NCBI RefSeq assembly: GCF_902652985.1
Contig: NC_047015.1
Span: forward strand, 41,292,001-41,356,000
From: Pecten maximus
Lineage: Eukaryota
Direction: 5' to 3'
DNA: 64,000 bases
A program made the position numbers. How positions within the stretch are numbered: the first letter of the stretch is position 1; each line of letters begins with the position of its first letter. Positions 1-3,000 of the stretch are shown here, piece by piece.

Positions 1-3000
1 ATGAAATTCAAGTTCGTCCCAATATCCTATGATTTATATATAAGTGATATTTAACAAGAATGAGCTTGGGAACAAAGTTATCACATAAACAGAGTAAAAC
101 TCATTCACACCATTGTTATCACTCAGACAAACCATTGTTATCACTCGGAAAAAAACTATTGTTATCACTCAAACTATTGTTATCACTCAGACAAACCATT
201 GTTATCACTCAGACAAACCATTGTTATCACTCAGACAAACTATTGTTATCACTCAGACAAACCATTGTTATCACTCAGACAAACCATTGTTATCACTCAG
301 ACAAACCATTGTTATCACTCAGAAAAAAACTATTGTTATCACTCAAACTATTGTTTCACTCAGTCAAACCATTGTCATCATTCAGACAAACTATTGTTAT
401 CATTCAGACAAACTATTGTTATCACTCAGACAAACTAGTGTTATTACTCAGACAAACTATTGTTATTCCACAATCTATTGCTATTACTCCGACAAACCAT
501 TGTTATTACTCATACAAACTATTGTTATCACTCAGACAAACTAGTGTTATCACTCAGAAAAACTATTGTTATCACTCAGTCAAACTATTGTTATCACTCA
601 GACAAACCATTGTTATCAACTTATCACTCAGTCAAACTATTGTTATCACTCAGACAAACTAGTGTTATCATTCAGACAAACTATTGTTATCACTCAGACA
701 AACTAGTGTTATCACTCAGTCAAACTATTGTTATCACTCAGACAAACTATTGTTATCATTCAGACAAACCATTGTTATCACTCAGTCAAACTATTGTTAT
801 CATTCAGACAAACTATTGTTGTCATTCAGACAAACCATTGTTATCACTCAGACAGACCATTGTTATCACTCAGACAAACCACTGTTATAATTCGGAAAAT
901 ACCTTTCCTTTCTTGCAGGTACACTTTTACCTTTACTCAGAAATAATTCCAATCACTTCAACAAATTATCAGTCAATTTAATATACATTTTGTCGCCATT
1001 ATGTCATTTCATTGTTACAATTTGTCACTCGTAGATAATGTCGTTACTGAAGCGAGATGTCACCATACATTTTTTCTGTAACTCTGAAAGTGTCGTTTCT
1101 GAGACGATTTGTACATAATACTAGTAAGAATTGTTATCATCACTCAAACACAATATCGTTACTAGTACGAATTGTCCCCGTTCGGACACGGTGTTGTTAT
1201 TGTGACGAATTGTCCCCGTCACTCGGACACATTGTGACGAATTGTCCCCGTCACTCGGACACGGTGTCATTATTGGAACGATTTGCACCTTTCACTCTGA
1301 CACAAGGTCGTTACTGGATCGAGTTGTCTCCATCACTCTGACACAAGGTCGTTACTGAGACGAATTGCTCTCGTCATTCGGACAGAGTATCGTTTCTGGG
1401 ACGAGAACGTGGGACGAGTTCTTCTTGTCGCTTGGACACCATATGCATCATATCTTGAACGAATGCATCCCTCATTCGAACACAGCATCATTATTGGGAT
1501 AAGCTGTTCCCGTCACTCGGGCGCTACATCGGTAACAGATCAAGTTGTTCCGTCAATCGGACAAACTACTAATATCCTGACTCATATCGGATATTTTCCG
1601 CATGTGGATATTTTCTCGGTAAGTTGTGGATTGTTCACTTCCGGAGTCCGTTGTGTCGGTATTACAACCTTCCCCATTACCCGACTCTGTTCCGTAGCAC
1701 GAGTCTGTCGGTGACAGAGAGCGGACCAAAAGGTTCACCTTCCGGTTCCGGCCCGGGGATGGATTTACGGCTGGACTGGTATCATGGAATTGAGAATAGT
1801 CAAACTCGAGAGATCCAGATGCCTTCCATTCAGCCATCATTGGTTTGAACTTCCGGTCCCAAAGAAAGTCACTTGGAAGATATGATGTGCGTGTCTGGAC
1901 CATCATTCCTGTCGACTCGATAGTCCCTTGTAAGAACACAATCACTTCAAAATTAGTTCTCCTTAAGTCATCCTCGTCGTTGTTCCAGAACGGACTCGTT
2001 GGAGTTATACTGTGTCGCAAAGTTACAGGCCAACGCAGAGAAATTCTAGGGTTAGTCTTTTGTGCAGAGAAGTCGAGATCGTACCGGAAGTGAGACACAA
2101 ATTCATCGTCATTTGTCACTCTATCACGAACGCAAACTGCATGTGCATGTGTATCAATCATGTCGGATCGCTGAAGGTCACCAACCCTTATAGACAAAAA
2201 CATATCATTGTTTTCTTCTGATATACAAACATTTCTACTGAACAAAATAGTGTTTGCTCGCTTCTTTGGTTTCTGGACCTTAGCTATGACCATTCCGGTA
2301 AGAAGAGCCTGCAGTAAAGCCCCAATTATGGACTGTACCAATACCGAGAATACAGCGGCTGGACATTCGTCATTTACATACCTCGTTCCGTAGCCGATGG
2401 TAGTCTGGGTTTCCATAGAAAACATCAACATATTGATAAAGTCTGGAGTATTTTCTACACAAGCTATCCATTTCTCGGTCTCCTTGATCCGCTCGAAATC
2501 TCCATGTACGGACGATATAGCATAGAACACAGCCGCAAAGAACAGCCAACTCAACAAGATCGCCAGTGAAAATATTGGTAGTAAAAATCGCCATGGAGTG
2601 TCCACTAGAGTCGTGAAAATGTCGTTTAGAAATTTTAGTTTTTTTCCGGTAACGGTCCTAGATTCTACATTACAAGCTCCCGATTTTTCCACCAATCTCG
2701 GGAGAAACGCGTGGTCTGCCTGAAGGGTCGTGGGGTCCGGGGCGAACCGTACTTTGAAACGTTTCTCCGAGACACGTGGTGGAATATCACTCTCCATAGT
2801 GCCCATTTTGACCACGACTGGCTCGTCCATTTCCTCGCTGTAGGATACTCTCCCGATTCCTGTTTGTCACTACGCTTATTATTCTCAAATGTTTCCCACA
2901 AGATGGATAGTTCGCCTCAGGCGCTCCGCTTTTTATCAGACTCGAAAGCAAATACAGGTGAAAACAGTATGCACGCCCCACATACGAGACGGTCGCTATT

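What the first reader, a model, noticed from the sequence alone, without database searches (positions are those of the whole stretch)
109..1576. The divergent Kir gene is also followed by arrays resembling its own last codons and stop
Seen: the CDS ends GAT ATT AGT AGT TTG TCC GAT TGA (DISSLSD*). The 22-bp array read on the same strand is GAT AAC AAT AGT TTG TCT GAG TGA (DNNSLSE*), 19/24 identical. A degenerate ~42-bp array with the same core runs from the stop to about 1020. Both paralogs therefore have stop-codon-anchored arrays with unrelated units. Inference: either repeat birth is biased to CDS ends, or the C-terminus was captured from the repeat.
Basis: partly seen in the sequence, partly recalled or inferred. 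Interest (0 to 1): 0.7.

Follow-up and report, generated by a model that had tools for sequence, protein, structure and literature searches.

The report
Minisatellites copied from Kir gene ends
In a scallop genome region packed with short tandem repeats, the repeat arrays behind two potassium-channel genes are copies of each gene's own last codons and stop codon, which is most simply an ordinary, protein-neutral duplication accident rather than a new mechanism.

Summary
The minus-strand Kir ORF 1553..2830 ends DISSLSD*, and its last 24 nt match the 22-bp array unit at 19/24. None of 121,954 control 24-mers reaches that. A degenerate 41-bp array (about 1025..1552) runs in phase into the CDS, and its last core contains the stop codon. 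So the array overlaps the stop rather than following it.

The second Kir gene (stop 21814..21816) shows the same thing in young form. Six 70-bp copies each re-encode ..ESETLL*. That C-terminus ends 30 of the 35 best homologues, including gastropods and a chiton, so there the array was copied from the CDS end.

For the gene of the finding, two scallop relatives share the last 15 residues (15/15 and 13/15). No orthologous DNA could be reached, so direction is inferred.

Best reading: tandem duplication of a segment spanning the stop. This is protein-neutral because translation ends in the first copy. The copies later decayed and a 22-bp derivative re-amplified. A bias of repeat birth towards CDS ends cannot be judged from two genes: nominal chance is 6e-4 at local array density, post hoc. 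Ordinary; low interest.

The parts
1553..2830 (-). Kir (inward-rectifier K+ channel) coding ORF, 425 aa, uninterrupted; ends ...RKISDMSQDISSLSD*
   Evidence: ORF list and translation. Pfam IRK 9.9e-50 and IRK_C 2.2e-40. Best homologue is a 425-aa Argopecten irradians protein, 94% identical over 100% of the query.
1533..1576 (-). Terminal array unit shared between the CDS and the 3' flank: stop codon (1553..1555), the last 4-7 codons, and about 20 nt after the stop
   Evidence: nhmmer envelope 1533..1567, in phase with the 41-bp array. Core at 1553..1563 with 1 mismatch. D6 copy at 1551..1568, 83%. 19/24 match to the 22-bp unit over 1553..1576.
1025..1552 (-). Degenerate 41-bp minisatellite, about 13 units, copies 60-79% like each other; each unit carries a copy of the ..S-(E/D)-stop core
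   Evidence: TRF 1167..1367, periods 32/41/73. Core positions. Repeat families D1-D6 with 41-nt spacing. Profile hits 1119..1530, E 3e-6 to 2e-10.
889..1024 (-). Spacer between the two arrays, with decayed repeat remnants. It holds the only ATTAAA-type hexamer on the gene strand downstream of the stop (977..982); there is no AATAAA.
   Evidence: Hexamer scan. Weak alignment to the 22-bp unit, score 21.
112..888 (-). 22-bp minisatellite, 35.4 copies, 85% matches; a shortened derivative of the same unit family
   Evidence: TRF. It aligns to the nearest 41-bp unit (1129..1160) at 25 of 29 plus one 3-nt gap (score 29; null 99.9th percentile 27). It aligns to the CDS end at 24 of 29 plus one 3-nt gap (score 24). 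The 41-bp profile hits it at E 0.7-9.
21814..23094 (-). Second Kir gene (GIRK-like), main coding ORF, ending ...AAEESETLL*. The start was not determined; the frame stays open to 23307.
   Evidence: Pfam IRK 2.6e-60 and IRK_C 1.2e-74. Homologues at 99-72% identity.
21431..21847 (-). 70-bp minisatellite, 6 copies. The first copy is the CDS end (last about 10 codons, the stop, and about 37 nt of 3' flank).
   Evidence: TRF, 95% matches. Register table: copies 0-5 each translate to IA(A/R)(E/D)ESETLL*.

Best explanation
The arrays are ordinary minisatellites. They were born by tandem duplication (replication slippage or unequal exchange) of a short segment that happened to span the stop codon of each Kir gene.

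Such a duplication is invisible to the protein, because translation still ends at the stop of the first copy. It is therefore the one kind of CDS-overlapping duplication that selection does not remove. The extra copies lie in the 3' flank, probably in the 3' UTR, and are free to multiply and decay.

At the second paralogue this is seen young: 70 bp x 6.

At the gene of the finding it is seen old. A 41-bp array of about 13 units has decayed to 60-79% identity. Its far end later gave rise to a shortened 22-bp unit that re-amplified to 35 copies. The 19/24 likeness of the 22-bp unit to the last codons is therefore inherited, not convergent.

Shown: the homology, the phase, and the direction at paralogue 2. 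Inferred: the direction at gene 1, the slippage mechanism, and neutrality.
For: (a) The CDS end is in register with the array.
- A profile of units outside the CDS picks 1540..1563 as its best non-training hit of the window.
- The core at 1553 lies 40 nt after the core at 1513.
- D6 includes 1551..1568.

(b) The 19/24 match is beyond all 121,954 control 24-mers.

(c) The 22-bp unit links to the 41-bp unit at 1129..1160: score 29, against a null 99.9th percentile of 27.

(d) Paralogue 2.
- Six copies re-encode ..ESETLL*.
- SETLL ends 30 of 35 best homologues (P0121-P0155) and 33 of 113 held hits, including named gastropods, bivalves and a chiton. So the CDS end is far older than an array whose interior copies match at 68-70 of 70 positions.
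- The two edge copies share states that the interior copies lack, as expected if the CDS copy is the founder.

(e) Gene 1: the last 15 residues are 15/15 identical in A. irradians P0001 and 13/15 in P0002. That is as conserved as the channel core (293/308 and 259/308). The end is a constrained coding sequence with the same stop position in three scallop sequences.

(f) No RNA-structure signal suggests a selected element in the gene-1 arrays (z +1.0, -0.46, +1.62). Rfam gives 0 matches.
Against: - No orthologous DNA could be examined, so the presence or absence of the arrays in other scallops is unknown.
- For gene 1, the shared tail is seen in only 2 relatives. In the MAFFT alignment, oyster homologues lack 10 of the last 15 residues. 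The end could therefore be a scallop-specific addition.
- A one-edit copy of the stop core lies at 1582 inside the CDS (expected 0.006 per 45 nt, post hoc). This hints that the ORF may already read through one former unit.
- The profile hit at the stop is weak on its own (E 0.09 window-wide).
- Beyond the core, the 41-bp units do not resemble the CDS (4.2 of 13), whereas the 22-bp units do (8.9 of 13). The simple history does not predict this.
- Two of two genes with a stop inside a first unit is more than uniform birth predicts (2.5% each).
Confidence: 0.6

Rival explanations
1. Two-step history at gene 1. The array was born from a stop-spanning duplication as above. A small frame change then disabled the stop of the first copy, so the ORF now ends at the stop of the second unit. 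On this reading the last about 10 residues (MSQDISSLSD) are repeat-derived. Both of the reader's alternatives would then be true in sequence.
For: - The 9-mer of the stop core recurs with one edit at 1582, 29 nt inside the CDS on the same strand. The expectation is 0.006 per 45 nt, from 17 such matches in 124,602 control positions.
- Oyster homologues have gaps at 10 of the last 15 columns.
- The 22-bp unit matches the CDS for 13 nt beyond the core at 8.9 of 13. This fits more than one unit's worth of repeat-like sequence in the CDS.
Against: - CDS interior 1569..1625 shows no significant alignment to the array under three scoring schemes (fraction of controls scoring at least as high: 0.17-0.78).
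- The pattern was chosen after seeing the sequence.
- The tail alignment to oysters and to P0003 is not statistically supported: BLASTP stops at residue 385.
- It needs one more event than the simple model.
Confidence: 0.2
2. Pure capture. A minisatellite already lay in the 3' UTR next to the old stop. Stop loss then let the ORF run into it until the first in-frame TGA of a unit core, so the C-terminus comes from the repeat.
For: - Each unit carries a TGA in its core, and 9 of the 11 cores keep it. Any ORF entering the array would therefore stop within a few units.
- Tails of this Kir clade vary widely in length.
Against: - Rejected outright for paralogue 2.
- For gene 1 it needs both an array edge next to the old stop and a stop loss.
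- The first core met is in frame. That has only a 1-in-3 chance with a 41-nt period (inference), whereas the birth model gives it for free.
- The last 15 residues are as conserved as the channel core in two relatives.
Confidence: 0.1
3. A real bias. Array birth or retention is favoured at the 3' ends of coding sequences in this genome, either through a mutational hot spot near the stop or through selection for multiplied 3' UTR segments.
For: - Both recognisable genes of the window have their stop inside the first unit of an array.
- At the local density (30 arrays, summed unit length 1,596 nt in 64,000) the expectation is 2.5% per gene and 6e-4 for both.
- The events are independent, since the units are unrelated.
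Against: - n = 2, noticed post hoc.
- The null ignores decayed arrays that TRF misses, as it missed most of the 41-bp array. The true edge density is therefore higher.
- With 33,772 genes (A. irradians abstract), chance alone predicts hundreds of such genes and several adjacent pairs (own arithmetic).
- No structure or family signal in the units.
Confidence: 0.1
4. Chance resemblance between the CDS end and the array unit.
For: The gapped local score of 24 is only between the 99th and 99.9th percentile of controls.
Against: - 0 of 121,954 control 24-mers and 0 of 20,000 shuffles reach 19/24.
- The match is adjacent, on the same strand, and in phase.
Confidence: 0.01

Closest known systems
Minisatellite / VNTR arrays in 3' UTRs, arising by slippage or unequal exchange
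   Same: Head-to-tail units of 22, 41 and 70 bp. Interior copies are more homogenised than the edge copies. Older arrays are decayed, and a secondary array derives from a shortened unit.
   Different: The first unit overlaps the end of the coding sequence, so every further unit carries a dead copy of the last codons and the stop. My searches of the held library for this configuration returned no paper describing it as a class. That is no proof it is unpublished.
C-terminal extension by stop loss into downstream sequence
   Same: It could account for a repeat-like C-terminus at gene 1 (rivals 1 and 2).
   Different: It does not apply to paralogue 2, whose C-terminus is far older than its array. 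At gene 1 it is unproven.
Tandem-repeat-containing MITEs of bivalves (pearl, DTC84)
   Same: The same window holds 155-bp repeat blocks, each ending in an (ACGG)n-type microsatellite. This is the module order described for DTC84 and pearl (PMC3879986; passages read). It shows that part of the window's repeat load is transposon-borne.
   Different: The Kir-end arrays are built from local unique sequence (the genes' own ends). They have no microsatellite module and occur nowhere else in the window. They are not copies of a mobile element.

Membership tests
Inward-rectifier K+ channel (Kir; Pfam IRK + IRK_C) | Transmembrane/pore domain PF01007 | tested here: met
   E 9.9e-50, profile positions 1-141 of 141, for gene 1; E 2.6e-60 for gene 2.
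Inward-rectifier K+ channel (Kir; Pfam IRK + IRK_C) | Cytoplasmic C-terminal domain PF17655 | tested here: met
   E 2.2e-40 (gene 1; the domain ends about 70 residues before the stop) and E 1.2e-74 (gene 2).
Inward-rectifier K+ channel (Kir; Pfam IRK + IRK_C) | K+ selectivity filter T-I-G-Y-G (motif recalled, not from a call) | tested here: met
   TIGYG is present in both translations and lies in an invariant block of alignment A1.
Minisatellite (tandem array, unit about 10-100 bp) | Head-to-tail copies at constant spacing | tested here: met
   TRF: 22 bp x 35.4, 41 bp x 3.2 (only part is detected), 70 bp x 6. Core spacings of 41 nt.
Stop-spanning tandem duplication (array whose first unit is the CDS end) | The unit covering the stop is in phase with the array | tested here: met
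   Gene 1. Gene 2.
Stop-spanning tandem duplication (array whose first unit is the CDS end) | Downstream units carry copies of the last codons and the stop | tested here: met
   Gene 2: 5 further copies of IA(R)(E/D)ESETLL*. Gene 1: core ..TC(C/T) GA(G/T) TGA in the units.
Stop-spanning tandem duplication (array whose first unit is the CDS end) | The C-terminus predates the array (it is shared by lineages far older than the array) | tested here: inconclusive
   Met for gene 2 at protein level (30 of 35). For gene 1 it is shared only by two scallop relatives and not by oysters.
Stop-spanning tandem duplication (array whose first unit is the CDS end) | Orthologous loci without the array keep the same CDS end | not testable with these tools
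C-terminus captured from a repeat (stop-loss extension) | Relatives without the extension end at or before the array edge | tested here: inconclusive
   Oyster tails show 10 gaps in the last 15 columns, but the tail alignment is not significant. The second core at 1582 is post hoc.

The most novel reading that the evidence does not exclude
Stop-anchored arrays may be a systematic class in scallop genomes. On this reading, minisatellite birth or survival is truly enriched where the unit spans a stop codon. The dead copies of C-terminal codons then occasionally feed back into the protein by small frame changes, as may have happened at 1582. That would make 3' minisatellites a recurrent source of new channel C-termini.
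Probability: 0.1. Interest if true: 0.6.

Novelty: new member of a known kind. Interest (0 to 1): 0.25.

Why it matters
Mostly as a clean worked example. Two neighbouring paralogues show the same accident at two ages, which makes the life cycle of a minisatellite readable: birth from unique sequence, homogenisation of the interior, decay, and re-amplification of a shortened unit.

It also explains why arrays can intrude into coding sequence only at the stop.

For annotation, it warns that arrays at gene ends in repeat-dense mollusc genomes carry pseudo-C-termini and pseudo-stops. These can mislead gene models and read mapping.

Only a genome-wide excess would lift it above the ordinary.

Tried and rejected
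- 27-bp array. I asked whether the 27-bp array 20871..21288 behind paralogue 2 is also a shortened derivative of its CDS end, which would parallel gene 1. The score was 17, equal to the 95th percentile of controls. Rejected.
- Deeper extension into the CDS. I asked whether the repeat extends further into the gene-1 CDS (1569..1625). It is not significant under three scoring schemes. Only the single one-edit core at 1582 stands out.
- RNA structure. Gene-1 units give z +1.0, -0.46 and +1.62. The 70-nt unit gives z -1.59, and two units together give -2.53 (2 of 200 shuffles fold as well). Nothing convincing. Rfam found 0 families and ARAGORN 0 tRNAs.
- Other genes for a larger sample of stop codons. 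I sent 36 of the 48 open frames of >=75 aa with <30% array overlap to Pfam. The 12 left out overlap the two Kir CDSs in other frames. Only the two Kir genes matched.
- Tail homology to the 58%-identical P0003. BLASTP alignment ends at residue 385, and the tail pieces have E 0.9-22.
- Ungapped comparison of the 3'-flank side of the units. It is uninformative because of 1-nt register shifts.
Cluster variants of the tails and the window's species stayed unchecked.
- Literature. Searches found no paper on stop-spanning minisatellites as a class. I saw search listings only, except for passages of PMC3879986, PMC11439060 and PMC5905365.

Full report
WHAT THE WINDOW IS

The window is eukaryotic and dense in minisatellites. 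TRF gives 93 rows. I merged the stronger rows into 30 arrays covering 25,571 of 64,000 bases, or 40%.

Only two genes are recognisable. I sent 36 of the 48 open frames of at least 75 aa with less than 30% array overlap to Pfam. The 12 left out overlap the two Kir genes in other frames. Only the two inward-rectifier K+ channel ORFs matched: 1553..2830 (-) and 21814..23307 (-).

The product of the first ORF is 94% identical over its full 425 residues to a protein named from Argopecten irradians. The next hit is an unnamed 419-aa protein, P0002, at 83% identity. Oyster proteins follow at 52-58%. The window therefore comes from a scallop close to, but not identical with, that reference.

Both protein searches used one uninterrupted ORF stretch each. 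The true start of the second gene, possibly on an upstream exon, was left open.

CHECK OF THE OBSERVATION

The 22-bp array is at 112..888, with 35.4 copies at 85% matches.

The ungapped match of 1553..1576 to the tandem unit is 19/24.
- None of 121,954 24-mers from 3000..64000 on both strands reaches 19; the maximum is 18.
- None of 20,000 shuffles reaches 19.
- The rest of the CDS peaks at 15.
- A gapped local score is less sharp: 24, against a null 99th percentile of 22 and a 99.9th percentile of 27.

The degenerate array is real, with period 41.
- An 11-nt core with up to two mismatches lies at 1025, 1140, 1219, 1251, 1292, 1333, 1374, 1428, 1472, 1513 and 1553.
- Of 49 such matches in the window, 42 lie at 119..1563 on the + strand and 7 elsewhere. 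Shuffles give 12.3 on average and at most 20.
- The repeat finder recovers families with 41-nt spacing from 1025 onward. Its family D6 includes 1551..1568 at 83%.

THE KEY CORRECTION

The array does not merely follow the stop. Its last core contains the stop.

I built a profile from the ten units that lie wholly outside the CDS and scanned the whole window on both strands. After the training units, the best hit is 1540..1563 (E 0.09, 9.4 bits). It sits at the model positions expected for the next unit in phase. The next hits all fall in the 22-bp array (E 0.7-9).

- the terminal unit, shared between CDS and flank;
- the decayed 41-bp array;
- a shortened 22-bp derivative.

The 22-bp unit aligns to the nearest 41-bp unit (1129..1160) at 25 of 29 with one 3-nt gap (score 29; null 99.9th percentile 27). 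It aligns to the CDS end at 24 of 29 with one 3-nt gap.

THE SECOND PARALOGUE DECIDES THE DIRECTION THERE

The 70-bp array 21431..21847 has six copies in register. The first copy is the CDS end. Each copy translates to IA(A/R)(E/D)ESETLL*.
- Interior copies match a reference interior copy at 68-70 of 70 positions. The last copy matches at 64 of 70.
- The two edge copies share states that the interior copies lack.
- The sequence just past the array resembles the start of the unit only loosely. By my own count from the print, it matches at 8 of 12 positions. This is weak evidence for slippage between short direct repeats.

The C-terminus SETLL ends 30 of the 35 best homologues (P0121-P0155) and 33 of the 113 hits held.
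- These include proteins named from Haliotis, Babylonia, Pomacea, Patella, Littorina, Mya, Dreissena, Potamilus, Biomphalaria, Elysia and the chiton Liolophura.
- The five exceptions among the 35 end in ESDMLLQLKHL, SETLM, EDSTLL (twice), or an unrelated tail.

From my own knowledge, not tested here, T-x-L at a C-terminus looks like a class I PDZ ligand, as in vertebrate Kir2 channels.

A C-terminus that old cannot have been captured from an array that young. The array was copied from the gene's end. The units of the two genes are unrelated (score 21 against a shuffle mean of 20.7), so the two events are independent.

DIRECTION AT THE GENE OF THE FINDING

Here the array is old and no orthologous DNA could be reached. 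The only open DNA collection holds bacteria and archaea.

Protein evidence:
- The last 15 residues are 15/15 identical in P0001 (A. irradians) and 13/15 in P0002.
- The channel core is 293/308 and 259/308 identical in the same two proteins. The rest of the tail is 51/56 and 42/56.
- The end is therefore constrained, and the stop is in the same place in three scallop sequences.

Against a simple reading:
- Oyster homologues have gaps at 10 of the last 15 columns. That tail alignment is not statistically supported.
- A one-edit copy of the 9-mer at the stop recurs at 1582, 29 nt inside the CDS. The expectation is 0.006 per 45 nt, and the pattern was chosen post hoc.
- The CDS interior 1569..1625 as a whole does not align to the array better than controls (0.17-0.78).
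- An unexplained asymmetry remains. Beyond the core on the CDS side, the 41-bp units match the CDS at chance level (4.2 of 13), while the 22-bp units match at 8.9 of 13.

MECHANISM, AND WHAT IS INFERRED

I take the arrays to be products of tandem duplication of a segment spanning the stop codon. The first copy keeps the full CDS and its stop, so the protein does not change. This is the only way an array can overlap coding sequence without cost. That explains why the overlap is at the stop and nowhere else in the genes.

The later steps are read from the gradient of profile scores and from the alignments. They are expansion, decay (edge units most diverged: 9-24 bits, against 31-36 in the middle) and re-amplification of a shortened unit.

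On the gene strand the only poly(A)-type hexamer after the stop is ATTAAA at 977..982. The 41-bp array may therefore lie in the 3' UTR and the 22-bp array beyond it. This is untested.

The slippage mechanism and neutrality are inferences.

IS THERE A BIAS TO CDS ENDS?

At the window's own density, the chance that a given stop lies in the gene-proximal first unit of an array is the summed unit length over the window length. That is 1,596/64,000 = 2.5%, or 6e-4 for both genes.

This figure needs several cautions.
- It is nominal and post hoc.
- It ignores decayed arrays of the kind TRF mostly missed here.
- The window is far richer in arrays than the 11.46% TRF content reported for the Argopecten purpuratus draft genome (PMC5905365; passage read).
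- With 33,772 genes reported for A. irradians (PMC11439060; abstract read), chance alone would give hundreds of such genes and some adjacent pairs (my arithmetic).

A bias can be neither claimed nor excluded.

COMPARISON WITH WHAT IS KNOWN, AND VERDICT

These are minisatellites of the usual kind, distinguished only by a first unit that overlaps the stop.

They are not copies of a mobile element. Their units occur nowhere else in the window. By contrast, the window's 155-bp blocks are followed by (ACGG)n-type runs, which have the module order of pearl/DTC84 elements (PMC3879986, passages read).

My library searches (listings only) found no paper treating stop-spanning arrays as a class. This is not proof of absence.

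Verdict:
- It is a new member of a known kind, of low interest unless a genome-wide excess is shown.

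Noticed in passing
window 44965..50632: Three blocks of a 155-bp tandem repeat (44965..47951, 48589..49139, 49443..50599). Each is followed by a short ACGG/GACG/CGGC-type microsatellite (47961..47989, 49152..49184, 50610..50632), and there is one internal run at 47201..47273. This is the module order (core repeats plus an ACGG microsatellite) described for the DTC84 and pearl tandem-repeat MITEs of bivalves (PMC3879986; passages read). Flanking inverted repeats and the AA target duplication were not looked for.
   Followed up: partly
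window 1..64000: Tandem arrays cover 25,571 of 64,000 bases (40%) in 30 merged arrays. This is about 3.5 times the 11.46% TRF content reported for the Argopecten purpuratus draft genome (PMC5905365). The two Kir genes sit on unique islands of about gene size.
   Followed up: partly
window 18442..20174, 12804..13601, 31041..32076 and others: Long open frames of up to 536 aa on either strand run through arrays. They are by-products of stop-free repeat units, not genes, and a gene finder could be misled by them.
   Followed up: no
window 24140..26479, 31100..33826, 18524..20018: Several arrays are strongly strand-asymmetric. GC skew falls to -0.83 in 32001..34000 and to about -0.5 in 18001..20000, 24001..26000 and 30001..32000. 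The C-rich strand is the + strand in all of them.
   Followed up: no
window 21431..21847 (- strand): Each 70-bp unit carries a short inverted repeat inside the codons for ESETL, and a 5'-splice-site-like AAG|GTAGGT about 30 nt after each stop copy. Folding gives z -1.59 for one unit and -2.53 for two. No meaning is established.
   Followed up: partly
window 23095..23337 (- strand): The frame of the second Kir gene stays open upstream of the part that matches homologues. The 99%-identical P0121 is 483 aa, against the 426 aa searched. The true start, possibly on an upstream exon, was not determined, and no exon joining was tried.
   Followed up: no
window 1582..1591: A one-edit copy of the 9-mer that holds the stop codon lies 29 nt inside the gene-1 CDS, out of frame as a stop. 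It may be a relic of an earlier stop, or chance.
   Followed up: partly
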